Origin: Psychrobacter sp. HD31
Lineage (GTDB): Bacteria > Pseudomonadota > Gammaproteobacteria > Pseudomonadales > Moraxellaceae
Length of the DNA: 32,000 nucleotides
Reading direction: 5' to 3'
NCBI RefSeq assembly: GCF_051097895.1
Contig: NZ_CP142525.1
Span: 150,001 to 182,000 of the forward strand
Shown here: positions 7,098 to 19,399 of the stretch, piece by piece
Layout: every line of letters begins with the position of its first letter
How positions within the stretch are numbered: the stretch's first letter is position 1
Notes under the pieces: model-generated
Seen by the model: the letters and a program-made list of their open reading frames with translations, nothing else
What the model was told of the DNA's origin: nothing
The model's database searches: none
Program-made: the position numbers and the translations under genes

Positions 7098-7120
7098 TAT
7101 GGTGGAGGTGGCGGGAGTTG
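7098..7120. repeat. int-distal att repeat (duplicate of the ssrA 3' end)
   Basis: TATGGTGGAGGTGGCGGGAGTTG is identical to 19041-19063. Confidence 0.9.
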
Positions 7121-7171
7121 TTTTTATCTATACAGCCCTTTATTTAAAAGGGATTAAGGTTTTCGTATTTT

Positions 7172-7194
7172 AAATATACCGTAAAATATACCGT
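7172..7194 (+). promoter_or_regulatory. Tandem TATACCGT motifs, candidate integrase arm-type sites (int-distal arm)
   Basis: AAATATACCGTAAAATATACCGT is identical to 18906-18928 and lies 52 bp inside the att repeat. Confidence 0.5.
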
Positions 7195-7701
7195 AATTTT
7201 ACAAAGTGTATTGCCTATTTGGGTATACCCCCTGCCGACTTTTGACCACATAAAAAAACGCTGGGGCTCGATGGTCTTTTAGACTAAGCCTTCCCACTTT
7301 GTACTCCCCCCTAGGTAGCTAAAAGCTCTGCCTATATAATTTGCAAATGGCTTTTCTCTTTTGTCCTTGTCATGTTTATTGCTCATACTCTTATACAGTC
7401 TACTACCGCCTTTTTGTCTATTCCATAAATTCATAAGACAAAAAAGGGAAATTTTTTTTCAAAATAGAAATTTTTTTATGAATGAGAGAGGGTGTGGTGT
7501 CCGCTTGGTATACCTTCCCAAACTTTTTGATACCCCCCTCCTTTGGGTAGGATGTTGGCATTACTATTATTTACTCTGACCTAAATAGCTTTTGGTTGAT
7601 TGCATTTATTGATTAATTAATGTCACATATGAGGCTTGCTATATTTATTGTTGGTTGACTCTTGAGGTTATATACTTATCATAGAAACGCCTTCAATTGC
7701 T

Positions 7702-7831
7702 TGCACACGCACGCACCCCCAAAACACGCTATTATGCTATTAATTCCTTTCTATGCTATGCGTACCAAGGGATACGAGGGATTGAGCTGTCTGCTATTGC
7801 GTGCTATTAGGTGCTATTCATGCTATTAATT
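7702..7831 (+). repeat. Iteron-bearing ~130-bp repeat, copy A (upstream of umuD)
   Basis: Long identical blocks are shared with 9703-9839 and, in inverted orientation, 17101-17220. It holds six GCTATT units, four of them at 9-10 bp spacing. Confidence 0.85.
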
Positions 7832-7843
7832 AGTGTTCTATCG

Positions 7844-7872
7844 TTGGGTGATTGTTCAATTCCAGTTATAAT
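7844..7872 (+). promoter_or_regulatory. Candidate sigma70 promoter for umuDC
   Basis: TTGGGT-17 nt-TATAAT, 31 bp upstream of the umuD ATG. Confidence 0.35.
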
Positions 7873-7902
7873 CACTTATCCTCTTATTAGGTTGACACAG
7901 TA

Positions 7903-8328
7903 ATGACTATCAAAATACTTGGTAAACTTTCGGCAAAAACATATCAGCCCTTACCTTTCTTTATTGAAGCTGTACCGGCTGGCTTTCCATCACCAGCAGA
8001 GGGCTACGCTGACGCAAGTATTGATTTAAATGAACTTTGTATAACTCACCCTAGTGCAACCTTTTTAGTACGTTCTAGTGGGCACTCAATGATTAACAAA
8101 GGTATCTTTGATAATGACTTATTGGTTGTAGATAGAAGTATAGAAGCTGTATCAGGAGATATTGTTGTGTGCATGGTAAATGGGGAGTTTACTGTTAAGG
8201 AGCTAGTACTAGAGCAAAAACCTATGCTAGTTGCCCATAACCCTGAATACCAAAATATAGAGCTTAACAGTGATATGGACTTTGAAGTCTTTGGTGTTGT
8301 AACAAATGTGATACGTAGTTTTAAATAA
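7903..8328 (+). CDS. umuD: UmuD-like S24 peptidase (translesion polymerase V accessory subunit)
   Basis: 141 aa with the LexA/UmuD fold pattern. The serine motif is SGHSM and a downstream Lys lies in FTVKEL. It sits immediately upstream of umuC. Confidence 0.8.
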   Translation: MTIKILGKLSAKTYQPLPFFIEAVPAGFPSPAEGYADASIDLNELCITHPSATFLVRSSGHSMINKGIFDNDLLVVDRSIEAVSGDIVVCMVNGEFTVKELVLEQKPMLVAHNPEYQNIELNSDMDFEVFGVVTNVIRSFK

Positions 8329-8417
8329 GACAACTATTGTTGCCTAACATGGTTCCGTTTTATTCTCTGAAAAATAATCATGATATAGTAATCTCACTTA
8401 ATAAATGAGTGATACCC

Positions 8418-9698
8418 ATGTATGCCTTAATTGATTGCAACAGCTTCTATGCCAGTTGTGAAAAACTATTCAGACCTGACCTTAAATATAAACCCGTTGT
8501 TGTGTTATCTAACAATGATGGTTGTGTGGTTGCACGCTCTAAAGAAGCTAAAGCCTTGGGTATTAAAATGGGCGTACCATACTTTAAGGTAGAGGGCTTC
8601 TGTAAAGCAAATGATGTAAGTGTGTTTAGTTCTAACTATACCCTGTATTCCGATTTGTCTAACCGTGTTATGTGTACGCTTGAAAGCCTATGCCCTACGG
8701 TAGAGATATACTCTATTGATGAAGCATTTTTATACCTTGATGACTACCCAACAGCCATGCAAGATTTAGAAGCATACGGGCAAATGATTAAACAAACGGT
8801 ATATAAACATACTGGCATACCTGTGGGTGTTGGTATAGGAAAAACCAAAACATTGGCTAAATTGGCAAACTATGCTGCCAAAAAACACCCCGCTACCGAT
8901 GGCGTTTGTGTATTAGATAATAGGCGTTGGATTAACCGCTTAATGCAGATAACGCCCGTTGGCGAAGTTTGGGGCGTGGGTAGAAGATATGCCAAAACAC
9001 TTAACGACATGGGTATAAACACAGTAGCAGATTTGGCGAATATGCCGTCAGGGTTGGTTAGGCAAAAGTATGGGGTGGTATTAGAACGCACACAACGAGA
9101 ATTAAACGGTCAACCCTGCCTAGATATTGAGCCAGTACAGTTAAAAAAACAGATTGTATCCTCTCGCTCATTTTCTAAACGCATTACCAATAAGCAAGAT
9201 TTAACAGAGGCGTTATGCGGTCACACAGCTAAGGCGATGGCTAAGCTAAGGGAGCAAGATAGTTTATGTACAACCATAAGCGTATTTGCTCGTAATAGTC
9301 CGTTTAGTAAGCATGAAAAGTTTACCCCTGTATCAGGGCAATATACTTTTAATGAGGCGACAAATAACACTACAGAGATGATAAAAGCGGTTAGGCTTGT
9401 TATAGATAATATGTATCAGGACAAGGTTAATTATGCAAAGGCTGGCGTTATGCTATCAGGTATTGTACAAGAAGATGAGGTGCAACCCGATTTGTTTAGT
9501 TTTGCAGGTTTAAACCCAATCAAAAAAGCAAAAGATGATGCCATTATGCAGTTAATGGATAAACTGAATACAAATAACAGCCATCAATTATTTATTGCCA
9601 GTGAGGGTGTAAGGAATAAACAAGAATGGTTAATGAATAGGCAGTATTTAAGCCCGTGTTATACAACTAGGGTTAGTGATTTGGTTTGTGTTAACTGA
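8418..9698 (+). CDS. umuC: UmuC-like Y-family DNA polymerase (Pol V catalytic subunit)
   Basis: The N-terminus [15 protein letters not shown] and SIDEAFL are classic Y-family motifs. The ATG at 8418 is preferred over the GTG at 8409. Confidence 0.88.
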
Positions 9699-9702
9699 TA
9701 AT

Positions 9703-9839
9703 CCATTTGCTTGTATACGAACGTACCCAAAACACGCTATTATGCTATTAATTCCTTTCTATTCTATGCGTACCAAGGGACACAGAGGATTTAATAAAAT
9801 GCTATTGCGTGCTATTAGGTGCTATTTATGCTATTAATT
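9703..9839 (+). repeat. Iteron-bearing repeat, copy B (downstream of umuC)
   Basis: Direct repeat of copy A. It shares AAAACACGCTATTATGCTATTAATTCCTTTCTA, CTATGCGTACCAAGGGA and GCTATTGCGTGCTATTAGGTGCTATT.ATGCTATTAATT. Confidence 0.85.
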
Positions 9840-10091
9840 TACTAATTTTAATATAACCTGATGAATTTAAAAGATAATTTAGAGCCTAAATAATGGGTGT
9901 AGGGGTTGTAGGTATTTTGCCTATAACTGTAGGATGATTGCTCGCCTGATTAGGCTTGCTGATAGGGTGATAATGATATTGTGAAGTCCAAATTTGGGCT
10001 TTGCTTAAAAATCAATAATTTAAAAAAATAAAGGGATACGCTTGGAACGCACCCCTTTATCAACCACATTTAATACTTATTAAGATTATAT

Positions 10092-12308
10092 TTATTTGTC
10101 AGTAAATACTTTTGGGTTGAGTTCTATACTGGCTTTGTTGTCGTGTTTAATCTCTCGTATGTGGTTATTATCTTTTAATATCTTGATAAGTGGGTCTAGC
10201 TTTTTCTTTTTGCGTAAGCTTGTAGGTGTTATGCCTTGCTGTAGTTTTACCCTAGGAACAATAGTTATATTATTCTCACGGCAATAGTTAATAAGCCAGT
10301 TTTCTACTCTATCTGCTTGTACTAGTTTTTCATCAAAATCCGTATAGCCTCCATAGCGTTCCCACTCCATGAGGCTATGCTCTGCCAATTTAATGCCACT
10401 GACCATTAGTTCGGGTGTTATTGCCTCTGACCCTTCAAAAAATGCCAACACGGTTGCAATGCGTATTGCGTTTGGTAAGGCTCTACCTGCAAATGACTTT
10501 AGGTGTACAAACTTGCCAGCACGTCCAACCTTTTTTTCAATATCATTATAAAAGTTCATTGCTAGGGTGTCGGCTTCATCGGTAAGGGGTATAACAGGGC
10601 GTTCAATGCGTCCGTCTATACTTTGAGGTGGTATTTTATCGAGTAAAAACTGGCAACGCCTCCAGTATTCAACTAAGCGTTTATCTTTGTAAAACTCTCT
10701 ATTATTTTTCCATGTATCTGCGGTATGGGTACGCTTGCCCGCCAAGGTGTCGGGGGCAGTGAATAAAAACCTACACAAAAAGCCTTGCTCCATCATCATT
10801 TTGTCATTTAGCACTTTTTCTAAGGCTACCTTTTGCCCTAGCATGTTAATACACAAACGCACGTCATAAGCCACGCCTGACCCATTCGCATTTGAACGTG
10901 AGCGGTGACGTGCTACTGGCTCACCATCCCATGTTTCTGTACATATGGATAGGGTAGACCCTTGATTATCTGCACTAAATGAGTATGACCCAAATACTTT
11001 GCTTGCTTCACCGCCAGTGATATAAGCACTTTTAAGGTGTTCATGAATATAAGAGCCCACAAGGCTGTCTATTGTAAAATCGCTATATATGGCTTTTGGG
11101 TTTAATGGTTTGGGGTATTTTTGTTCGTATTCCTCTTTCGCTTTATTACCTTTGCATTGTGCTAGGGCTTTGTTATGCTCTTCTAATCTGTCTAGGTATT
11201 GGTTGTATTCTTTTTTGTCATGCTCAACTATCCGTAAATTAGCTTTATTGATACAAGAGGATTTTCTATCTCCACTATCTCCCTCAATCATAATAAACAA
11301 GCTACAAGGCTCGCCATATTGATGTTGGAATGAGCGGGCATTTACATGGTTTTGGGCTAAATAAGCCATCGCCCCAAGTACCGTATGACCAGCCATAGCT
11401 ATGCTGGCTTGTGAGTGCTGTGCTATAGCACTAACCGCATTTTTAGCCAGTGGTGGAAAAGCGTCTAATGGGTATCGGTTGGGTTCGCCCCGTTCATTTA
11501 TTAATAAAGTAAAAGGCTCGCTTTTATTAATTTCATCCCAAGATAGTTGTTTTTTTTCATCATCAGATAGGGTAGTAGATGTATTGGCTATATTCATACG
11601 GTGGATGTCTGCATTATCCATTAATCGTATAACCTCTGTATTATCTATCTCCCAGTCTATGGCAAATTCTAGGGCATATATAGCAACATTGGTATTGGTT
11701 AGTAGGGTCTTGTAGTCGCTAAGCTCATGTATGCCTATAGGGGCTATTAAACGCCCTTTGGCTTTAAATTGCCATTGCTTGGCTACATAGGCAAGGTTTG
11801 CAGGTGTAAAGCACACCATGATGGTTGCTGTACTATCTAGTTTGTAAAGATTTAGCCCCGCCTGTAGGTCTGCTACCAGGTAAACTTTATTATCCGTGGT
11901 AAAGGAAGAGCCGATAATAAAAGCACCTTGCGGATGTATTATTGGTTCAAAAATGGTTTTACCTTGAATACCTTTATCATCAATGGGTGGAATCATGGCG
12001 GTGTTAGTAGGCTGTAAATCACTATTTACCAAAGGTAATAATAAATGATTAATGCAATTTATATTGCCATTGTCTCCTTTAGTAAAGCCTTCTTTAGTGA
12101 GCAGTATATTACCGCTAATAATTGCACTTGCAGGTAGGTGTGCTAAAGGCTCATGGTATTGGCTTATTACATCATTGGTAGCACGGTTATTCTCAAATAA
12201 TCTTATGAGTTGTTGTGCAGGATTTTGATTTAATGATGGTTCATTTGCTGGCGGTTCATTGCCACCTTTGGTTGTACTTTGCTTAGTTTTATCGGTTTGG
12301 GTATTCAC
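10092..12308 (-). CDS. DUF3987 (YfjI-like) primase/helicase-like replication protein
   Basis: 738 aa. The central block YPLDAFPPLAKNAVSAIAQHSQASIAMAGHTVLGAMAYLAQ matches the characteristic DUF3987 N-terminal motif. A P-loop-like GDSGDRKS follows. The gene sits downstream of alpA, as in CP4-57. Confidence 0.65.
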   Translation of the reverse strand: MNTQTDKTKQSTTKGGNEPPANEPSLNQNPAQQLIRLFENNRATNDVISQYHEPLAHLPASAIISGNILLTKEGFTKGDNGNINCINHLLLPLVNSDLQPTNTAMIPPIDDKGIQGKTIFEPIIHPQGAFIIGSSFTTDNKVYLVADLQAGLNLYKLDSTATIMVCFTPANLAYVAKQWQFKAKGRLIAPIGIHELSDYKTLLTNTNVAIYALEFAIDWEIDNTEVIRLMDNADIHRMNIANTSTTLSDDEKKQLSWDEINKSEPFTLLINERGEPNRYPLDAFPPLAKNAVSAIAQHSQASIAMAGHTVLGAMAYLAQNHVNARSFQHQYGEPCSLFIMIEGDSGDRKSSCINKANLRIVEHDKKEYNQYLDRLEEHNKALAQCKGNKAKEEYEQKYPKPLNPKAIYSDFTIDSLVGSYIHEHLKSAYITGGEASKVFGSYSFSADNQGSTLSICTETWDGEPVARHRSRSNANGSGVAYDVRLCINMLGQKVALEKVLNDKMMMEQGFLCRFLFTAPDTLAGKRTHTADTWKNNREFYKDKRLVEYWRRCQFLLDKIPPQSIDGRIERPVIPLTDEADTLAMNFYNDIEKKVGRAGKFVHLKSFAGRALPNAIRIATVLAFFEGSEAITPELMVSGIKLAEHSLMEWERYGGYTDFDEKLVQADRVENWLINYCRENNITIVPRVKLQQGITPTSLRKKKKLDPLIKILKDNNHIREIKHDNKASIELNPKVFTDK

Positions 12309-12357
12309 TGATTACCTCTGTTTTATCTATTTCATTATATGAATGGGTGGTATTTGC

Positions 12358-12789
12358 TTAACGTCTGCCATAGCGTGATAGTCGTCTTTTTTGGTAGTGA
12401 CGTTTGCGTTTTTTGTAGCGGTTTCGTCTTTGTTCGGCTGTTGTGTTTAGCGTGCTGTGACTTAACCTGTACTGGTCGCATTGCCTAGAAGGGTGTAGAT
12501 GTTCAAAGCCTGTAATGCAACCTATGTGGATAGTGCATTGCTCTACTTGCCAGCCATATTGTGGTTTGTCTGCTTGTAGAGCTAGGCAAGTTTGCTTTGC
12601 TTGTTCTAGGGTCAGGGGTATGCCAGTAACCCCAAAGGGGGCTACTGGGTTGCCTGTTTGATTGACGGCATAGTATTGGATATAGTCGCCATCTAATACA
12701 CACTCAAAGTCGCTTAGGTCGTTAAGGCTGGTTATGCTTTTGGGCAGGTCAATACTCGATATAGTGGTACTGGTTGTATTTGTATTCAC
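12358..12789 (-). CDS. Hypothetical protein with an extremely basic C-terminal tail
   Basis: 143-aa ORF whose start overlaps the stop of the upstream gene by 4 nt. The tail reads RRNRYKKRKRHYQKRRLSRYGRR. Confidence 0.6.
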   Translation of the reverse strand: MNTNTTSTTISSIDLPKSITSLNDLSDFECVLDGDYIQYYAVNQTGNPVAPFGVTGIPLTLEQAKQTCLALQADKPQYGWQVEQCTIHIGCITGFEHLHPSRQCDQYRLSHSTLNTTAEQRRNRYKKRKRHYQKRRLSRYGRR

Positions 12790-13658
12790 AATATACCCCC
12801 AACACGTCCGTTAGTAGTTTTTGCCATTTCATCATTTAGTCTATTGATGGTATGACGTATAAAATCGGCATTGGTTTCACTGCTTAGTTGTGCTAGTCGT
12901 GCAAGGGCTTGGATTTGGCTTATACTATCTAGTGCTTTGATTGTTGCAAAAAGGCTGGTTAGGTTGTTTAAGGCTTCATAAACGCATAATAAATCATCTA
13001 TATTGCTTCGTGCCTCACCAACTGGTAAAGAGATGGTTTCATTTTGGATATTTGCATTACCTTGTGGTATATCAGTTACGTTATTAGAAGGGTTATTACT
13101 GGCTGGTACTATTGCGTCACTGGGAGGTCTAATCACCTTATAACCATCATATTCTGCCTGTAACTCTTGCATAGTGACAATATTGCTTAGGATATTATCC
13201 ATTGCTTCTAGTTTCGCTTTACTGTTACGGGTGTCTAGCCCTGCTTTTTGGTTTAATTCAACTTCTGCATTTAGTTGATTGAGTGCATTATGAGCATATT
13301 TGCACCAGTCGTTAAGGGTAGGTGTTTGATGATTAAATGCCTTTGTTGGCTCACTTGCCAGCTTGGCGGGCATGTGCGTTTGCAACTGAATACGCATTAG
13401 GTCGATACTTTTTATTACTTCCTTACTGTCTGTTGTAAAATCCATGGTTAGGATTTCATCAATAGTTTGTAGGTGTCTGATTGTTTGTGTATCGTGCGAG
13501 TGGGTTTGAGTATAAGCCTTGGTAGCCGTTTTTAGAGCGTCTAATAGCTCTATTTGCTCTACCTTGCAGGTAATGCTGTCTTGACTGTCGCCAAGTAGCT
13601 GTAACAGCTCATCACGGTTAATTTGTGTGGTTATTGGGGTTTGGTTTGATGTGGTCAT
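12786..13658 (-). CDS. Hypothetical protein, apparently alpha-helical
   Basis: 290-aa ORF with 4-nt start/stop overlaps on both sides, consistent with translational coupling. No family was recognised. Confidence 0.6.
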   Translation of the reverse strand: MTTSNQTPITTQINRDELLQLLGDSQDSITCKVEQIELLDALKTATKAYTQTHSHDTQTIRHLQTIDEILTMDFTTDSKEVIKSIDLMRIQLQTHMPAKLASEPTKAFNHQTPTLNDWCKYAHNALNQLNAEVELNQKAGLDTRNSKAKLEAMDNILSNIVTMQELQAEYDGYKVIRPPSDAIVPASNNPSNNVTDIPQGNANIQNETISLPVGEARSNIDDLLCVYEALNNLTSLFATIKALDSISQIQALARLAQLSSETNADFIRHTINRLNDEMAKTTNGRVGGIL

Positions 13659-14074
13659 GATTGACCTCCTAATAGATTTTGAGTTAATGCCACGCTATGA
13701 AAATTCATAGGGTAACGGGTCTTACTCTCGGTACTATTAGTAACCGCCCTGCATATTCGCCTAATGGCTTTTGTATTTTGCAACGTCAACCCGTTATAAG
13801 GTGGTAAATTGATTACCATAGATACAACGGTTTTACCCTGTTGGGTAAATTGCTTTGTACTTTTATACTGGTTTGGTTGAGAGCCGTGCCAGTTTTTTTG
13901 CACAAAAAAAGCCAATGGTTCACGGATTGGCTGTCCGCTAATAGTTTTAGAGAGGTCTCCAGTATAGGCGAATGCACAACTAAAAGGCAAGCACAATAAT
14001 ATAAATATGATTATTGCCATGCAGGTATCTTTTATTCTTTTAGCTAGTTTATGTTTGGGTTGTTTGGTGGTCAT
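13655..14074 (-). CDS. Hypothetical small secreted or membrane-anchored protein
   Basis: 139 aa. A basic N-terminus (KHKLAKRIK) is followed by a hydrophobic segment AIIIFILLCLPFSCAFA. It overlaps both neighbours by 4 nt. Confidence 0.55.
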   Translation of the reverse strand: MTTKQPKHKLAKRIKDTCMAIIIFILLCLPFSCAFAYTGDLSKTISGQPIREPLAFFVQKNWHGSQPNQYKSTKQFTQQGKTVVSMVINLPPYNGLTLQNTKAIRRICRAVTNSTESKTRYPMNFHSVALTQNLLGGQS

Positions 14075-15171
14075 TTGTTTGCTCCGTTATTAATTGAGTC
14101 ACTTATAGACGCAAGTAACAATCCAGCGGGGTTGTAATGAGTTAAACCATGGGTCATGGCATGGTCAAAGATAAGCCCTGTCTCTCGGATTATCGCCATA
14201 GCTTGGTCGCTGTCTGCTTTCTCTTGAACATCAAGCATGATGGCTTCAATATTGCCGTGTGATATATCCCTAATATCCATAGAACCAATCAGCGGTTTAA
14301 CAAAATGAATATAGGCAGCATACAAACGGTCGTTTGTGCTTTTATCTAGTTGAGCTTTATGCTCTGCAAACCACCCTTGTGCAATGTCATCAAATAGATT
14401 GGAGCGGTGCATGGTTGTGGTTTTTACTACTGGGGAGCTTGGATTTAAGTGTATAAAGCCGTTTATCTCATCGCTAAAGGTTTGTAGCCTTGTTTGTAGA
14501 ATTTGATTAATTACGGCTAAATGGTGGGCGTTATCGTCTTTGCTCATCATGATAAAACCAATATCATCACGGTAAAGGTTGTGGTTATGGCGTGTGGTTG
14601 TATCTTCAATGTTGTTTAAGGGGCTACTCCCAAAACTTGCACAGTCGGCAATAAAGCGGTGTCCTTTAAGTGTAACCATTGTGAGGAGATACTCGCCTCG
14701 TTTTGACGGGTAAACGTCATTTATATTGAGGGGGTCAGTAGGCTTGATTTGCTCTATGTCGTGAACATAGGCAAAGTTGCTGGCACGTGTACTCCACTCG
14801 TCATTATGTGACTTGTATTTAGTAGAGTAGTCGGGGTGGTTGCGTATGTCATCATTGGTTAAACCATTGTTAAGGGCATGAGATAACTCCTCATAGTCCA
14901 TATATTGGCGGTTAACAATTAATATACTATCTACGGTATCATTGATACATTCTAGCCAGCCATTGGCTATGTGAATGGTCATATCCGCTACATAATCCCA
15001 ATCGGTACAATCAAAGCCAACATTGATATGGTTGCCTTTTTTACTGGTAGCAATAAGCACATACTTGTGTTGCTTTGCCTGCTCTAGGTTAGTTACCCAA
15101 GGTTTACCGTTAGCAGTGGCGTTGTCATTAAATGGGTCGGGGTGTACGGTATGAATTGGTTGTTTAGTCAT
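14071..15171 (-). CDS. Hypothetical protein: unknown N-terminal region fused to an integrase core-binding (SAM-like) domain, with no catalytic domain
   Basis: 366 aa. Residues ~260-350 align at roughly 45-50 percent identity (hand count) with residues ~101-190 of the island integrase. The shared blocks are FD.IAQ.W.AE.K..L.K.T.DR.Y.AY...VKP.IG.M.I.DI and IRE.G.IF.HA...GL...NPA. Confidence 0.6.
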   Translation of the reverse strand: MTKQPIHTVHPDPFNDNATANGKPWVTNLEQAKQHKYVLIATSKKGNHINVGFDCTDWDYVADMTIHIANGWLECINDTVDSILIVNRQYMDYEELSHALNNGLTNDDIRNHPDYSTKYKSHNDEWSTRASNFAYVHDIEQIKPTDPLNINDVYPSKRGEYLLTMVTLKGHRFIADCASFGSSPLNNIEDTTTRHNHNLYRDDIGFIMMSKDDNAHHLAVINQILQTRLQTFSDEINGFIHLNPSSPVVKTTTMHRSNLFDDIAQGWFAEHKAQLDKSTNDRLYAAYIHFVKPLIGSMDIRDISHGNIEAIMLDVQEKADSDQAMAIIRETGLIFDHAMTHGLTHYNPAGLLLASISDSINNGANK

Positions 15172-15173
15172 GA

Positions 15174-15464
15174 TTAAGCTACCCCGTCATCGTTATAGTT
15201 TTCGTCATTTGAGGCTTGGGCTTTGAACCAAGCGTGCACGTCCTCATTTGCCCATGCTGTTACTGTTGGGCTTAATTTATGAGGTTTAGGGAATAAGCCC
15301 TCTTTAGTCCATTTCCAAAGCGTGCTTTCGCCAATGGGTAAATAGGGTAGTAGCTGTTTTGCTCGACTAAAGCCATTAACGGGTAAGGCTGGGGGCTGGG
15401 TGTTGCTAGTTTGTCTATCTAATTCGCTTTTATTTGCGTTTTGAGAGGTGTTTGCGGTAGTCAT
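15174..15464 (-). CDS. alpA: AlpA-family helix-turn-helix regulator (excision/transcription activator)
   Basis: LPIGESTLWKWTKEGLFPKPHKLSPTVTAWANEDVHAWF matches the Phage_AlpA pattern. The start at M18 (15464) is preferred because AAGGAA lies upstream. The longest ORF would start at 15515. Confidence 0.8.
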   Translation of the reverse strand: MTTANTSQNANKSELDRQTSNTQPPALPVNGFSRAKQLLPYLPIGESTLWKWTKEGLFPKPHKLSPTVTAWANEDVHAWFKAQASNDENYNDDGVA

Positions 15465-15578
15465 AGTACAATTCCTTATCTTTAAGTTGTAAATGCTTAA
15501 ATACACTATTGTCATCTATCACCGTGGTAATGAATGACGCTAGATGTTTGGAATTGTAGAAGTTGGAGCGTTTCAGTG

Positions 15579-15590
15579 TTCTAATTAGAA
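15579..15590. promoter_or_regulatory. Perfect palindrome TTCTAATTAGAA upstream of alpA (candidate operator)
   Basis: 12-bp perfect palindrome. Its 10-bp core TCTAATTAGA recurs at 15652-15661. Confidence 0.35.
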
Positions 15591-15640
15591 TAATTAGTTT
15601 TATTTAGAATGTTAACTTATTGTTTTTTAATATTTTACAT

Positions 15641-15672
15641 AAGAATACCGCTCTAATTAGAACGGTATTCTT
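15641..15672 (-). terminator. 10-bp perfect hairpin at the end of the 285-aa cargo gene
   Basis: AAGAATACCG-12 nt loop-CGGTATTCTT. The loop contains the stop codon and the TCTAATTAGA palindrome. There is no clean U-tract on the minus strand. Confidence 0.4.
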
Positions 15673-16510
15673 TTGCTTCATCAATAACTTTTTTAAAGGT
15701 ATCTTTACTTATAAAGTCTATATCATGAGTATCTGCATGAATTTTTAATTTTTGGTACAAGGTGTAAGGATGTTTTGTATCAAAGCCTCCTTCGTCTAGT
15801 AATAAGTGAATTAGTTTTAAATATGATGATTTGCTTTTATGGTTAAGTTTATCTGATGGTTTTATTAGCTCTTTTGACTTTTCTTTAGTTGAGGTTGATT
15901 GAAGCTTTGGCTGGCATATCACTTGTACTTGGTGATTTGGGATGAAGATAGTATCTTTGGTTAGTTTCGCCCCTTTGATAATATCTTTTGGTAATTCGGA
16001 TGGTTTTGTTTTATTAGGTAGCATAAATGATAAGGTATATTCAAAAGGCATAAAAACAGTTGAAGTTTTTTTAGCTTCTTCATTCATCAATACTGCATAT
16101 CGGCAATACACCTCATTGGTTATGCCCATAAGTAAATTTTTAATAGTTTCGCTATATCCATGCCAGCCAGTAGCAGAAAAATACCCACCAATAGGTTTTA
16201 ACTCTGTAGTTGTTGTATTCCATTTTTCCAAGTATTTATTTATGTCATCATGAGAATAAAAGTCGTCAGTAACTAAAAAACCATAACTCGCTAAATTAAA
16301 GCAAATGTCAATCTGATTATTAAAATATAGGTTGTATAAATCTATCATCTGAAAGCTAGGATTAGACAATCTTAATTTATGTAATGCAGTCTCTATTGAA
16401 ATATAATCACTCATAAATACACCCATGCACCCACAAAGTAAAATAAGAGCTATGGCGGGCAAGGTTAGGGTGCATAATGCCCTTGCGTTCGGGTAATTAC
16501 TCCTAGCCAT
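15653..16510 (-). CDS. Hypothetical cargo protein, possibly a signal-anchored or lipoprotein
   Basis: 285-aa ORF in the AT-rich slot. The N-terminus MARSNYPNARALCTLTLPAIALILLCGC has a positive n-region, a hydrophobic core and a lipobox-like LCGC. Alternative starts are at 16426 and 16414. No family was recognised. Confidence 0.55.
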   Translation of the reverse strand: MARSNYPNARALCTLTLPAIALILLCGCMGVFMSDYISIETALHKLRLSNPSFQMIDLYNLYFNNQIDICFNLASYGFLVTDDFYSHDDINKYLEKWNTTTTELKPIGGYFSATGWHGYSETIKNLLMGITNEVYCRYAVLMNEEAKKTSTVFMPFEYTLSFMLPNKTKPSELPKDIIKGAKLTKDTIFIPNHQVQVICQPKLQSTSTKEKSKELIKPSDKLNHKSKSSYLKLIHLLLDEGGFDTKHPYTLYQKLKIHADTHDIDFISKDTFKKVIDEAKEYRSN

Positions 16511-16536
16511 AGCAAACTGGTTAACCCATTGGAGGG

Positions 16537-16806
16537 TTAAAATAGTTTTTCTAATGCCTCATGTTTTAAAGTTATTAAAGCGGTCTTGTCATCTTCAAAT
16601 CTTATAAAAACCGTTACGTCATCAACATTGCCTGTTAAGCTGTATCCTGCTAGACCACCGAGTAAAGCACCAACGCCACCAGTTAGCATACCTGCTGTAA
16701 GTGCAAACATGCTACCTTGGAATACACTGTAGCCATGCTTTTTGGCTTGGTGGTGGTCGATTATGTCAATGCTGTATATCTCGTTAAGTTTACGACCTTT
16801 TGCCAC
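16537..16806 (-). CDS. Small glycine-zipper membrane protein, probably the -1 frame continuation of ORF 16761-16943
   Basis: 89-aa ORF with GMLTGGVGALLGGLAGYS. It has a GTG start with no SD. It is reachable from the upstream ORF by a -1 shift at A_AAA_AAC. Confidence 0.5.
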   Translation of the reverse strand: MAKGRKLNEIYSIDIIDHHQAKKHGYSVFQGSMFALTAGMLTGGVGALLGGLAGYSLTGNVDDVTVFIRFEDDKTALITLKHEALEKLF

Positions 16807-16943
16807 TGGTTTTTTTCTTTAAAAAAACGTCCTTTTTCTTCCATCTCATAAAAATAAATAAAACTGCCACTAATCCAACCATCTTTGATTAAGTAGTGGT
16901 TACTGTCATGCGTTGTAAAATTGTGTATTCCTAAAAAAGCCAT
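16761..16943 (-). CDS. Upstream 60-aa ORF (zero frame) of the split cargo gene
   Basis: ATG at 16943 is preceded by GAGGG 7 nt upstream. It overlaps the 89-aa ORF by 46 nt in a different frame. Confidence 0.45.
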   Translation of the reverse strand: MAFLGIHNFTTHDSNHYLIKDGWISGSFIYFYEMEEKGRFFKEKNQWQKVVNLTRYTALT

Positions 16944-17100
16944 CTTATACCCTCGTGTTGGTATAGCACAGTTAATTTATGGTCATTTGACTACACAGGT
17001 TTTTAATTCCGCGTTTCAAACGCGAAACTAAAAAAACATCATGCTATTTTTAAACCTTTAAGTTTTTATTTAAAATCAATGATTTAGTTTGGCTTTAAAA

Positions 17101-17220
17101 CAATAATAGCATTAATAGCACGCACTAGCATTTTATTAAATCCTCTGTATCCCTTGGTACGCATAGCATAGAAAGGAATTAATAGCATAATAGCGTGTTT
17201 CGGGGGTGCGTGCGTGTGCA
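17101..17220 (-). repeat. Iteron-bearing repeat, copy C (inverted, mosaic of A and B)
   Basis: The reverse complement begins TGCACACGCACGCACCCCC as in A and continues AGAGGATTTAATAAAATGCTA as in B. It has one GCTATT unit fewer. Confidence 0.85.
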
Positions 17221-17635
17221 TATCTGCATAGATAAATTACGCCTAAAATGGGGTTAGGTTTGCTCGGATTTCAAATCTGACCAAAAACTAACCACGCATG
17301 ACCTGCCAATATTGCCATTTAAAAAATCTTGTTATGATAATATATATAATAAAAACAATAACTTAATAAATAAAAAAGAGAAAAAACAAAAAATCACGCC
17401 CGATGGGTAGAAAAACGGGCAGGGCTGGCAAGTGAGCCAACACGGTGTAACCGTGTGTGTAAAACATTGGCTATGGTGTGGGTTGGTAAGATGTAAAGAC
17501 TAATAAGGATATATGTAATATATAATATATATATATTTATATATCTATTAATATTCTTAATCTATTTCTTACTTTCCCCTCTATACCAGTGTATCCTTTT
17601 TTATTTTATTAAATGGTTATCATTACTATTTAATA

Positions 17636-18880
17636 TTATTGGTTAATAGACTTTCCTGTATCAGATTTAAAATCAACGTGTATCACATTATCCAATGTGC
17701 CAAGCTTTGCATTATCAATAATTTTAGCCCAATCATTCATCATCTTGGTTCTATACTTAATATACATAGCACCATCATAAGCTTTGCTTACCTTGTTATC
17801 TTTATCGTGGGCTAATTGTAGCTCAATAGCTTCGTGCATATATTCAAGTTCATGTAGGGTTGTGCTGGCAAGACCTCTAAAGCCGTGTGTGGTCATCTTC
17901 CCTTTGTAACCCATTTTGTATAGAGCATTTATAAAAGCATGTGAACTTAAAGGCTGGCGTTTGCTGGTGTTATAAAATACATATTTTTCACTAAACCCCA
18001 ATCCTTTGATTTGTTGTAGTAGCTCAATAACAGGTGGTGCTAACGGTACCAGGTGTTTACGTTTTACTTTCATTTTTTCGGCTGATAAACGTATTATTTT
18101 ATCTTTAAAATCAATATCTGCCCATTCAAGCATTCTTACCTCATTGGTTCTCAAAAAGGTGTAGCAAGTAAACCACAAGCCTAGTTTAACCAATACATGC
18201 CCTTTATAGTTGTCAATATCTTGTAATAGCTGGGGTAGTTGTCGTATCGTAATACGGTTGTGGTGCTTTGTTATACTCGGCTGTATGGCTTCTGTGAGGT
18301 TTATAGCTGGGTTGTGAGTAGCTAAACCTTGCCTAATAGCATGCTTAAATATTTGCCCAACCTCACGTATGGTACGTTTTGACATCTCTATTGCTCCCCG
18401 TTTTTCAATGGCTTTTCCAATAGCTAAAATATCAGGAGGGGCTATATCTGTAATTATCATATGTCCTATAGCGGGTTTTACATCCCTTTCATAAGCAGAA
18501 TAATTACGGTCATATGTTTTCTTAGCAAGGTAAGTTTTACGCTCTGCATACCACTCTTGTGCGATGTTATCAAACAATAGAGAGCCATCTACTTTGGCTT
18601 TTTGCTCTTTTTTGTGTTGCTTAGGGTCTGTGCCTTGGGCAATCATTTGGCGGACGTGTTGGTGTTTTTGGCGGGCTTGTGCCAATGACAGTATAGGATA
18701 CTTACCAAGAGTAAGGCTTTGGCGTTTACCGTTAAATTTATAGTCTGATACCCAAACCTTATTACCAGTATGACGTACCCAAAGACGTAAGCCGTCTCCA
18801 TCACTGTATTTGTCAGGGCGGGCAGGGGTACATTTATCGGTTGGCTTCAACCGTTTAATGGCGGTATCTGTTAGAGGCAT
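17636..18880 (-). CDS. int: P4/CP4-57-type tyrosine integrase (arm-binding DUF4102 N-terminus, SAM-like core-binding domain, catalytic domain)
   Basis: 414 aa. The N-terminus LTDTAIKRLKP...DGDGLRLWV is typical of P4-type integrases. Catalytic-domain motifs LRTNEV and HGFRGLAST are present. It lies adjacent to ssrA. Confidence 0.9.
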   Translation of the reverse strand: MPLTDTAIKRLKPTDKCTPARPDKYSDGDGLRLWVRHTGNKVWVSDYKFNGKRQSLTLGKYPILSLAQARQKHQHVRQMIAQGTDPKQHKKEQKAKVDGSLLFDNIAQEWYAERKTYLAKKTYDRNYSAYERDVKPAIGHMIITDIAPPDILAIGKAIEKRGAIEMSKRTIREVGQIFKHAIRQGLATHNPAINLTEAIQPSITKHHNRITIRQLPQLLQDIDNYKGHVLVKLGLWFTCYTFLRTNEVRMLEWADIDFKDKIIRLSAEKMKVKRKHLVPLAPPVIELLQQIKGLGFSEKYVFYNTSKRQPLSSHAFINALYKMGYKGKMTTHGFRGLASTTLHELEYMHEAIELQLAHDKDNKVSKAYDGAMYIKYRTKMMNDWAKIIDNAKLGTLDNVIHVDFKSDTGKSINQ

Positions 18881-18905
18881 TGACGGTATATTTCCTTAAT
18901 TAAAT

Positions 18906-18928
18906 AAATATACCGTAAAATATACCGT
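18906..18928 (+). promoter_or_regulatory. Tandem TATACCGT motifs, candidate integrase arm-type sites (int-proximal arm)
   Basis: Identical 23-mer to 7172-7194. An inverted ACGGTATA lies at 18883-18890 next to the int start codon. Confidence 0.5.
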
Positions 18929-19040
18929 TATTTTAAATAGATTACAAGAGACTATACTAGACTATATAATAGTCTAAATCCCCTGTAAGCCTTTAAAAAT
19001 ATAGCCCAGTCGGATTATATCAGACTGGGCTATATTGGTG

Positions 19041-19063
19041 TATGGTGGAGGTGGCGGGAGTTG
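19041..19063. repeat. int-proximal att repeat (functional 3' end of ssrA plus 2 nt)
   Basis: Identical to 7098-7120. Confidence 0.9.
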
Positions 19064-19399
19064 AACCCGCGTCCGCCAGCACTACGCTCATGAATCTACA
19101 TGTTTAGGGTCTGTCTATAAATTTAATCCGTTCCGAACCGACAGTCAGGTAAGATTGGACGAGTCTTTAAATTTAGTCTCATTAGTCAAGACACCTAACA
19201 AGACGGACCTATGTGCGTTCGCTTCGGGGTGATCAACCTAACCATAGGTAGTTAGTGACGACCCAAGCAGCCCTTAGGCTGCTAGAGCGTAAGTTTCGTC
19301 GTTTGCGACTATTTTAAAATATACTTGATTTACGAGAGGGTATAACTCTCGACATGCATCATTGAGTTTCATCACCAGCGTCGAAGCCAGAACACCCCC
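19043..19399 (-). ncRNA. ssrA: tmRNA (transfer-messenger RNA)
   Basis: The 5' end GGGGGTGTTCTGGCTTCGAC pairs with the 3' end CACCTCC-A-CCA, including a G3-U wobble. The T-arm is GGGTTCAACTCCC. The tag reading frame GCAAACGACGAAACTTACGCTCTAGCAGCCTAA (19274-19306) encodes ANDETYALAA. Confidence 0.95.

What the first reader, a model, noticed from the sequence alone, without database searches (positions are those of the whole stretch)
16761..16830. Canonical -1 slippery heptamer A_AAA_AAC joins the 60-aa ORF to the 89-aa glycine-zipper ORF
The minus-strand mRNA reads GGA CGU UUU UUU AAA GAA AAA AAC CAG UGG. The zero frame stops 14 codons later, giving 60 aa. A -1 slip on A_AAA_AAC (plus-strand coordinates 16809-16815, the X_XXY_YYZ pattern) gives ...KEKKPVAKGRKL... 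and runs through the whole 89-aa ORF, for a fusion of about 135 aa. The upstream ORF has a good SD (GAGGG 7 nt before the ATG at 16943). The GTG at 16806 has no SD, so the glycine-zipper part is unlikely to be translated on its own. A programmed shift would set a fixed ratio of short product to membrane-active product. The adjacent T7 and A7 runs (T7 = plus 16821-16827, A7 = plus 16810-16816) allow other explanations: transcriptional slippage, phase variation, a homopolymer sequencing error, or a pseudogene.
Basis: seen in the sequence. Interest (0 to 1): 0.65.

Follow-up and report, generated by a model that had tools for sequence, protein, structure and literature searches.

The report
Gene split by one-base poly-A frameshift
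The two small ORFs are the two halves of one ~135-residue membrane-protein gene on a mobile island, put out of frame by one missing A in a run of As, and nothing beyond the run itself indicates a programmed ribosomal frameshift.

Summary
On the minus strand a 60-aa ORF (16943-16761) and an 89-aa ORF (16806-16537) overlap, and an in-frame A_AAA_AAC (16815-16809) sits where the frame must change.

The only detectable homologue among 1.84 billion representative proteins is P0002, 141 aa and 37% identical. It is one uninterrupted ORF that aligns across both halves with no gap at the junction and has no heptamer there. So the two ORFs are one gene.

Homology places the frame switch inside the A run. 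The sequence is exactly what GAA AAA AAA CCA (E-K-K-P) becomes after losing one A. The "canonical heptamer" is therefore an automatic by-product of that deletion.

- There is no downstream stimulatory RNA structure.
- In-frame slippery heptamers are common in this 38%-GC window: 64 in 8664 codons, four of them A_AAA_AAC.
- The break appears to fall inside a single PH-like domain, so the 60-aa product is unlikely to fold alone (low-confidence models).

Best reading: an ordinary homopolymer frameshift, either a real mutation or an assembly error, in an orphan cargo gene. The gene encodes a PH-like fold with an inserted glycine zipper. It lies on a 12-kb P4-like island integrated in ssrA of Psychrobacter sp. 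HD31. Programmed frameshifting is not excluded (about 0.1). Interest is low.

The parts
16537..16943 (-). Whole gene as it would read with one more A: 135-aa protein with a PH-like fold and an inserted glycine zipper
   Evidence: Fusion translation. Collinear 37% identity to the uninterrupted 141-aa P0002, E = 1.4e-18.
16761..16943 (-). Upstream ORF as it stands (60 aa). Residues 1-44/45 are the true N-terminus; residues 46-60 are an out-of-frame tail.
   Evidence: FTTHDSNHYL.KDG is nearly identical in P0002, and the homology in this frame ends at K42-K44.
16537..16806 (-). Downstream ORF (89 aa), annotated in GenBank as hypothetical protein VH441_00640. It holds strands 4-5, the glycine zipper GMLTGGVGALLGGLAGY, strands 6-7 and the C-terminal helix.
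   Evidence: secondary structure.
16809..16816 (-). A7 run followed by C. It contains the in-frame A_AAA_AAC (16815-16809) and is the inferred site of a one-base deletion from an A8 run (GAA AAA AAA CCA).
   Evidence: Adding one A restores the frame and the collinear alignment. Homology brackets the switch within 3 codons.
16809..16828 (-). Palindrome GUUUUUUU-AAAG-AAAAAAAC (8-bp A-U stem with a G-C closing pair). It includes an in-frame U_UUU_UUU and the -1-frame stop UAA (16821-16819).
16950..16954 (-). Shine-Dalgarno-like GAGGG, 6 nt before the ATG at 16943
   Evidence: Read directly.
16832..16836 (-). AAGGA, an SD-like pentamer about 13-16 nt 5' of the heptamer. It is a possible but weak upstream stimulator and may be only the codons AAA GGA.
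   Evidence: Read directly; not tested statistically.
15653..16414 (-). Next gene downstream: an orphan protein of 253 aa as annotated (VH441_00635), or 285 aa from the first ATG at 16510
   Evidence: No family hits.
17636..18880 (-). P4-type tyrosine integrase of the island
   Evidence: Arm-DNA-bind_3, Phage_int_M and Phage_integrase domains.
7121..19040 (.). Integrative island of about 12 kb in the 3' end of ssrA. Order: integrase, cargo (this gene and its orphan neighbour), AlpA, DUF3987 primase/helicase, then a umuD-like and Y-family polymerase pair.
   Evidence: tmRNA at 19043-19399. 23-bp direct repeat at 7098-7120 and 19041-19063. Domains.

Best explanation
This is one gene, not two, and the frame break is an ordinary one-base loss in a homopolymer.

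The intact gene encodes a protein of about 135 residues. A PH-like beta-sandwich (strands 1-5, then strands 6-7 and a C-terminal helix) carries a glycine-zipper helical hairpin inserted between strands 5 and 6. The Lys-rich loop between strands 3 and 4 was encoded by GAA AAA AAA CCA. Loss of one A, from A8 to A7, gives the present GAA AAA AAC CAG. That change shifts the frame, ends the first ORF after 15 out-of-frame codons, and leaves the remaining 89 codons open in the -1 frame.

The 'canonical' A_AAA_AAC is a by-product of this deletion. Whether the missing A is a real mutation (a recently inactivated cargo gene, possibly selected because the product harms membranes) or a homopolymer error in the assembly cannot be decided without reads. 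I put the two at roughly equal odds.

Inferred, not shown:
- Some full-length protein, perhaps 0.1-1%, may still arise by unprogrammed ribosomal or transcriptional slippage on the run.
- The intact protein would sit on the inner membrane through the glycine-zipper hairpin and oligomerise.
- It would serve the island as an accessory function such as a toxin, exclusion factor or abortive-infection effector.
For: 1. A full HMMER scan of 1.84 billion representatives finds, apart from the 89-aa ORF itself (P0001), one significant homologue. P0002 is 141 aa, a single ORF, and aligns to residues 8-134 of the fusion with no gap at the junction. Its DNA needs no shift and has no heptamer at the aligned site.
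2. Homology switches frame exactly at the A run. Inserting one A reproduces the conserved K-P, whereas tandem slippage would place Asn there.
3. There is no downstream stimulator: z-scores are -0.5 to -1.3 for 49-111 nt after or around the site.
4. In-frame heptamers are frequent in intact genes of the window: 64 in 8664 codons, four of them A_AAA_AAC.
5. A_AAA_AAC is a poor shifter in E. coli (PMC4066793; PMC5009743).
6. AlphaFold models of both proteins give the same strand and helix order, and their best PDB matches are almost all PH-superfold domains aligned over about 130 columns. P0002 also has a weak precomputed hit to Pfam PF27000 'PH_gly_zipper'. The break therefore falls inside one domain.
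7. The gene lies in the cargo position of an ssrA-integrated island. Both it and its neighbour are orphans.
Against: - Only one homologue exists, at 37% identity, so nothing shows how close relatives read at this site.
- The structural models are low confidence (pLDDT 45-46) and the fold matches are weak (E >= 0.004).
- Local assembly quality looks good. About 22 homopolymers of 7-8 nt lie inside long intact ORFs, and the conserved housekeeping genes checked match their family models from end to end (formate-THF ligase, PEP synthase, SthA, L9, S6, PpsR). This argues somewhat against a sequencing error.
- The 89-codon downstream frame is still fully open, the upstream ORF keeps a good SD, and the island is otherwise intact. 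Any inactivation must therefore be recent, or the downstream part is still translated.
- An in-frame heptamer with an AAGGA about 13 nt upstream is what a weak IS1-like signal would look like.
Confidence: 0.7

Rival explanations
1. Programmed -1 ribosomal frameshifting. Ribosomes slip on A_AAA_AAC at a set low rate, so that a small, fixed amount of the membrane-active 135-aa protein is made alongside a 60-aa product. This would resemble IS1 InsAB'.
For: - The heptamer is in frame and is the first possible productive shift site after the -1-frame UAA.
- A_AAA_AAC is a proven bacterial site in IS1 that works without a known stimulator (PMC4066793).
- An AAGGA lies about 13 nt upstream, within the spacing that stimulates -1 shifts in dnaX (for the sequence; the spacing rule is from my own knowledge).
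- The downstream frame is intact and the upstream ORF has a good SD.
- Local assembly quality is good.
Against: - The homologue is unsplit and has no heptamer at the aligned site.
- There is no 3' structure.
- The motif is common in ordinary genes here and is the automatic residue of an A8-to-A7 deletion.
- The zero-frame product would be three strands of a PH-like domain plus a 15-aa unrelated tail, which is not a plausible independent unit (low confidence).
- Tandem slippage would put Asn where the family has a conserved Lys.
Confidence: 0.1
2. Length variation of the A run acts as a switch. Either the DNA switches between A7 and A8 by slipped-strand mispairing (phase variation), or RNA polymerase stutters and adds an A to part of the transcripts, perhaps helped by the U7/A7 palindrome.
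For: - The frame change sits in a mononucleotide run, and one extra A restores the gene.
- The run is half of a perfect 8-bp palindrome.
- A second T7-N4-A7 palindrome in the same codon phase lies in the same island: 2 found against 0.19 expected.
Against: - Seven As is short. Known productive transcriptional slippage sites and phase-variable tracts are mostly 9 or more bases (my own knowledge of T. thermophilus dnaX, Shigella mxiE/spa13 and contingency loci; PMC5009743 for the examples).
- Hairpin-driven realignment as described yields deletions, which would not restore this frame (my own knowledge of Penno et al. 2015).
- The second palindrome lies in an intact ORF that needs no shift.
- No population data are available.
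Confidence: 0.08
3. Two separate small genes, of 60 aa and 89 aa, that happen to overlap. The second would be started at GUG 16806 or by translational coupling.
For: GenBank annotates the 89-aa ORF as a gene of its own.
Against: - One homologue covers both halves collinearly.
- There is no SD before the GUG.
- The 60-aa ORF's last 15 residues have no counterpart in the homologue.
Confidence: 0.03

Closest known systems
Homopolymer frameshifts in genes (indel pseudogenes, or homopolymer miscalls in long-read assemblies)
   Same: The frame change maps onto a mononucleotide run. Restoring one base gives a full-length protein collinear with an intact relative. There are no recoding stimulators.
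   Different: Read-level data are not available, so a real mutation cannot be separated from an error. Other homopolymers in the window are all in frame.
IS1 insA-insB' -1 frameshift on A_AAA_AAC
   Same: It uses the same heptamer, has no known 3' stimulator, gives a low-level fusion of a short upstream ORF with a -1 ORF, and sits on a mobile element.
   Different: In IS1 the split and the motif are conserved across the family, and the upstream product (InsA) works on its own. Here the only relative is unsplit, and the upstream product would be a domain fragment.
E. coli dnaX -1 frameshift (A_AAA_AAG with an upstream SD and a downstream stem-loop)
   Same: An A-rich heptamer in frame, and an SD-like AAGGA at a comparable distance upstream.
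   Different: The last base is C rather than G, which is far less shifty in E. coli (PMC4066793). There is no downstream stem-loop. The shift would lengthen the product rather than shorten it.
Pfam PF27000 'PH_gly_zipper' and bacterial PH-domain proteins
   Same: The homologue P0002 has a weak precomputed hit to PF27000. Both models have PH-like topology, and a GxxxG-rich zipper is present.
   Different: The window protein has no recorded hit. The model is not in the local Pfam copy, so it could not be scored. No function is known for the family from the sources I could search.
P4-like and PICI-like integrative satellites that carry accessory cargo next to the integrase
   Same: A P4-type integrase beside a tmRNA gene, flanking direct repeats, AlpA, a DUF3987 primase/helicase, a size of 12 kb, and orphan cargo between int and alpA.
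   Different: No capsid-redirecting or packaging genes were recognised. No related island was found for comparing the cargo slot. No match to known defence-system models.

Membership tests
Programmed -1 ribosomal frameshift cassette (bacterial) | In-frame X_XXY_YYZ heptamer inside the overlap of the 0 and -1 ORFs | tested here: met
   A_AAA_AAC at 16815-16809, in phase. The motif is common in ordinary genes here.
Programmed -1 ribosomal frameshift cassette (bacterial) | Stimulatory RNA structure a few nt 3' of the heptamer | tested here: not met
   Folds of 49-109 nt after the site, and of 111 nt spanning it, give z = -0.5 to -1.3 against shuffles. The only stem starts 2 nt after the motif and closes a 33-nt loop. 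Pseudoknots could not be evaluated.
Programmed -1 ribosomal frameshift cassette (bacterial) | Upstream SD-like stimulator about 10-14 nt 5' of the heptamer | tested here: inconclusive
   AAGGA lies about 13 nt upstream. It is a 5-nt match inside the codons AAA GGA, and its significance was not established.
Programmed -1 ribosomal frameshift cassette (bacterial) | Split ORFs and heptamer conserved in homologues | tested here: not met
   The only homologue, P0002, is one ORF and reads ATA GAC AAA CCA at the aligned site. It is a distant relative (37% identity), and no close ones exist in any collection searched.
Programmed -1 ribosomal frameshift cassette (bacterial) | Zero-frame product is a functional unit of its own | tested here: inconclusive
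   The models put the break between strands 3 and 4 of one PH-like domain, but pLDDT is only about 45.
Programmed -1 ribosomal frameshift cassette (bacterial) | Measured frameshifting above background, dependent on the motif | not testable with these tools
   Needs a reporter assay or mass spectrometry.
Homopolymer indel (pseudogene or assembly error) | Frame change coincides with a mononucleotide run, and a one-base correction restores collinearity with an intact relative | tested here: met
Homopolymer indel (pseudogene or assembly error) | Read-level or resequencing evidence for the run length | not testable with these tools
   No reads are available. The source assembly's genes are not in the contig index.
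Transcriptional slippage site or phase-variable tract | Long mononucleotide run (typically 9 or more) | tested here: not met
   The run is 7 nt. The threshold is from established knowledge and PMC5009743.
Pfam PF27000 PH_gly_zipper | Match to the family HMM | tested here: inconclusive
   P0002 carries a weak precomputed hit. The window protein has none on record, and the model is absent from the local Pfam copy.
Pfam PF27000 PH_gly_zipper | PH-like beta-sandwich with a C-terminal helix | tested here: inconclusive
   Both models have the 7-strand plus helix order, and their top PDB matches are nearly all PH, PTB or FERM-F3 domains. However, E >= 0.004 and pLDDT is about 45.
Pfam PF27000 PH_gly_zipper | Glycine-zipper (GxxxG repeats) segment | tested here: met
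   GMLTGGVGALLGGLAGY in the sequence. P0002 has sub-threshold hits to Gly-zipper_Omp and Gly-zipper_OmpA.
P4-like integrative satellite or island | P4-type integrase next to a tRNA/tmRNA gene, with flanking direct repeats | tested here: met
P4-like integrative satellite or island | AlpA-type regulator and a primase/helicase replication protein | tested here: met
   Phage_AlpA E = 6e-6; DUF3987 E = 5e-49, plus PHROG helicase and primase hits.
P4-like integrative satellite or island | Helper-exploitation genes (capsid size redirection, packaging) | tested here: not met
   None recognised by the Pfam, NCBIfam or PHROG scans of the island ORFs. Several ORFs remain unassigned.

The most novel reading that the evidence does not exclude
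The split is genuine and functional. A weak, stimulator-free A_AAA_AAC shift, or polymerase stuttering on the U7/A7 palindrome, would throttle a toxic PH-like glycine-zipper membrane effector to a trace level in uninfected cells. That would be a recoding-based safety catch on a cargo gene of a phage-satellite-like island. It would be the first such case outside IS transposases, dnaX and phage tail chaperones.
Probability: 0.08. Interest if true: 0.55.

Novelty: already known. Interest (0 to 1): 0.15.

Why it matters
As it stands this is mainly an annotation point. VH441_00640 is the C-terminal two-thirds of a frameshifted gene, and the N-terminal third is unannotated. It also shows that a textbook slippery heptamer at an ORF junction can be left behind by a homopolymer deletion and is not in itself evidence of recoding. 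If the split proved real and programmed, it would add a small membrane-active cargo protein to the short list of bacterial genes that use -1 frameshifting. The protein family itself, a PH-like fold with an inserted glycine zipper, has only two close members and no known function, and may deserve a test for toxicity or phage exclusion.

Tried and rejected
- **Search for close orthologues to see whether the split is conserved.** All searches came back empty apart from the 89-aa ORF itself (P0001) and one distant homologue, P0002. The searches were: the word-indexed protein search with the fusion and with a two-sequence profile, full HMMER over 1.84 billion representatives, tblastn against plasmids and phages, and pattern scans of genome, viral and metagenome contigs. 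P0003 (1501 aa, hit on a repeat) was judged spurious.
- **Independent assemblies of the same island.** Exact look-up of the 89-aa, 285-aa and integrase products found nothing on record.
- **Function.** Pfam, NCBIfam, PADLOC and the PDB by sequence gave no significant match. PHROGs gave only marginal hits (E 5e-4 to 9e-3) to families of unknown function. A literature search for PH_gly_zipper, and for a PH domain with a glycine zipper in phage, found no papers. A search for strain HD31 also found none.
- **Neighbour gene as a guide to related loci.** It is an orphan too.
- **Related islands through the primase.** None found in viral contigs.
- **Paralogy with the other palindrome.** The second T7-N4-A7 palindrome lies in the 139-aa ORF, which raised the idea that the two ORFs are paralogues. 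This was rejected because there is no protein similarity.
- **Rfam.** Only tmRNA was found.

Full report
**1. The observation**

- An ATG at 16943 is preceded by GAGGG 6 nt upstream. It opens a 60-codon ORF that stops at UAA 16763-16761.
- A second ORF, in the -1 frame, runs from GUG 16806 to 16537 (89 aa).
- The zero frame reads GAA(16817-16815) AAA AAC(16811-16809), so A_AAA_AAC is in the X_XXY_YYZ phase.
- Reading in the -1 frame from the A run, or adding one A, gives a 135-aa fusion.

- The -1 frame is closed by UAA (16821-16819) immediately 5' of the run, so the A run is the first place where a shift could be productive.
- The U7 run is also an in-frame U_UUU_UUU, but a slip there meets that UAA at once.
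- U7 and A7 are the arms of a perfect palindrome, GUUUUUUU-AAAG-AAAAAAAC.
- Fifteen sense codons, not 14, follow AAC in the zero frame.
- Classic tandem slippage would keep Asn and give KEKNPVAK.

**2. Are the two ORFs one gene?**

They are.
- The word-indexed search with the fusion returned only the 89-aa ORF itself, annotated as hypothetical protein VH441_00640 of Psychrobacter sp. HD31.
- A full HMMER scan of 1.84 billion representative proteins added one real homologue. P0002 is 141 aa, with E = 1.4e-18 and 37% identity, and it matches residues 8-134 of the fusion in a single stretch.
- The pairwise alignment is collinear across the junction with no gap there. In frame 0, KGRFFK aligns with KSQLLK. 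In frame -1, KPVA aligns with KPKA. The N-terminal motif FTTHDSNHYL.KDG is almost identical.
- P0002 is a single uninterrupted ORF on a 1.2-kb Logan contig, next to the 3' end of an aminotransferase gene.
- At the aligned site its DNA reads ATA GAC AAA CCA AAA GCT, which contains no slippery heptamer. It does have an in-frame A7 ten codons upstream, so Lys-rich poly-A stretches are a feature of this loop.

**3. Where and how the frame changes**

Homology brackets the switch between K42 (frame 0) and the conserved K-P (frame -1), which is the A run. The present sequence GAA AAA AAC CAG is exactly GAA AAA AAA CCA (E-K-K-P) minus one A. An A8-to-A7 deletion in this phase necessarily leaves an in-frame A_AAA_AAC. 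The heptamer is therefore not independent evidence of recoding. The A8 version reproduces the Lys that is invariant between the two homologues, whereas tandem slippage would place Asn there.

**4. Tests of a programmed signal**

- *Downstream structure.* Folds of 49, 69, 89 and 109 nt after the heptamer, and of 111 nt spanning it, are no more stable than shuffled sequences (z = -0.5 to -1.3). The only stem begins 2 nt after the motif and encloses a 33-nt loop.
- *Upstream stimulator.* An AAGGA lies about 13 nt 5' of the motif. This is compatible with an SD-type stimulator, but it is only a 5-nt match inside AAA GGA, so it is inconclusive.
- *Background frequency.* In 24 ordinary genes of the window (8664 codons) there are 64 in-frame X_XXY_YYZ heptamers. 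Sixteen are A_AAA_AAN and four are A_AAA_AAC. That is roughly one per 135 codons in this 38%-GC DNA.
- *Motif strength.* A_AAA_AAC is classed as low efficiency in E. coli, although IS1 uses it (PMC4066793). [quoted passage not shown]
- *Conservation.* The only relative is unsplit.
- *Rfam.* Only tmRNA is found in the window.

**5. What the protein is**

Local Pfam, NCBIfam, PADLOC and PDB sequence searches give nothing significant, and PHROGs gives only marginal hits to families of unknown function. P0002 carries a weak precomputed hit to Pfam PF27000 'PH_gly_zipper'. That model is not in the local Pfam copy.

AlphaFold models of the fusion and of P0002 were built from a two-sequence alignment and are of low confidence (pLDDT 46 and 45). 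Both give the same order of elements: five strands, two helices over the glycine-rich segment, two strands, and a C-terminal helix. Foldseek against the PDB returns almost only PH-superfold domains, aligned over about 130 columns. These include the PH domains of BBS5, PLC-gamma2 split PH, USP37, GRK2, Sin1, SSRP1 and Rtt106, and FERM F3 domains. Probabilities reach 1.00, but E-values are only 0.004-0.03 and TM-scores about 0.4-0.45.

Taken together, the protein is most likely a PH-like sandwich with a glycine-zipper hairpin (GMLTGGVGALLGGLAGY) inserted between strands 5 and 6. The frame break falls between strands 3 and 4, inside one domain. The 60-aa product would be three strands plus an unrelated 15-residue tail. 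That is unlike the self-sufficient upstream products of IS elements, dnaX or phage gpG. This step rests on low-confidence models and is an inference.

**6. Context**

- The gene lies in an island of about 12 kb integrated in the 3' end of ssrA.
- The tmRNA gene is at 19043-19399 with tag ANDETYALAA.
- A 23-bp direct repeat lies at 7098-7120 and 19041-19063.
- The island carries a P4-type integrase (17636-18880), an AlpA-like protein (15174-15515), a DUF3987 primase/helicase (10092-12308), and a umuD-like plus Y-family polymerase pair at the far end.
- The split gene and its 253/285-aa neighbour sit between int and alpA. The neighbour is also an orphan.
- No defence-system model matches, and no related island could be found.
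- An accessory role such as toxin, exclusion or abortive infection through membrane insertion of the zipper is my inference from position and composition only.

**7. Mutation or assembly error?**

The window holds 38 homopolymers (A/T runs of 7 or more, G/C runs of 6 or more). About 22 lie inside long ORFs that stay in frame, including two runs of 8. Conserved genes such as formate-THF ligase, PEP synthase, SthA, L9, S6 and PpsR match their family models from end to end. The assembly is therefore not riddled with homopolymer errors, although one error in about 25 runs cannot be excluded. The downstream frame is still fully open, which fits either an error or a recent mutation. Independent assemblies of the strain are not on record. 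I cannot separate the two and rate them about equal.

**8. Verdict**

| Reading | Probability |
|---|---|
| Ordinary one-base homopolymer frameshift in a single gene (best explanation) | 0.7 |
| Programmed -1 frameshifting | about 0.1 |
| Run-length switching or transcriptional slippage | about 0.08 |
| Two independent genes | about 0.03 |

Some unprogrammed slippage on A_AAA_AAC may still yield traces of full-length protein, as in the 'compensatory' low-level frameshifting described in PMC5009743. Interest is low, and the kind of event is already known.

Noticed in passing
window 7718-7831 (+), 9726-9839 (+), about 17094-17220 (-): A repeat of about 125 nt occurs three times inside the island, at 85-100% identity. 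It is rich in TGCTATT iterons, including four in tandem with a period of about 10 nt. One copy lies just upstream of the umuD-like gene, one just after the polymerase gene, and one 150-280 nt upstream of the split gene on its strand. These could be origin or cis-replication iterons like P4 ori/crr, or an operator array. The 45-aa ORF at 17084-17221 is just this repeat read as protein.
   Followed up: partly
window 13893-13910: A second T7-N4-A7 palindrome (TTTTTTTGCACAAAAAAA) lies inside the intact 139-aa ORF 13655-14074 (-). It is in the same codon phase as the one in the finding (U_UUU_UUU ... A_AAA_AAC). Two were found against 0.19 expected, and 5 of 100 shuffles reach two. The two ORFs share no protein homology.
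   Followed up: partly
window 7171-7206 and 18905-18940: A 36-nt repeat holding tandem AAATATACCGTA units lies just inside both ends of the island. These are probably integrase arm-binding sites.
   Followed up: no
window 7903-9698 (+): A umuD-like S24 peptidase (141 aa) and a Y-family DNA polymerase (429 aa) are carried as cargo at the far end of the island, bracketed by two copies of the 125-nt repeat.
   Followed up: no
window 14071-15171 (-): This 366-aa ORF has a C-terminus matching only the central 'Phage_int_M' domain of integrases, with no arm-binding or catalytic domain. It is chained by 4-nt ATGA overlaps to three further unassigned ORFs (13655-14074, 12786-13658, 12358-12789).
   Followed up: no
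window 15653-16510 (-): The gene next to the split gene is a complete orphan: its only database match is itself. GenBank starts it at MSDYISIE (253 aa). The longer 285-aa reading would add a hydrophobic, Cys-containing N-terminus (…AIALILLCGCMG…).
   Followed up: partly
L001 185-610: The only homologue, P0002, comes from a Logan assembly of run SRR33677546. It lies beside the 3' end of an aminotransferase gene, with no sign of a mobile element on its 1.2-kb contig.
   Followed up: partly
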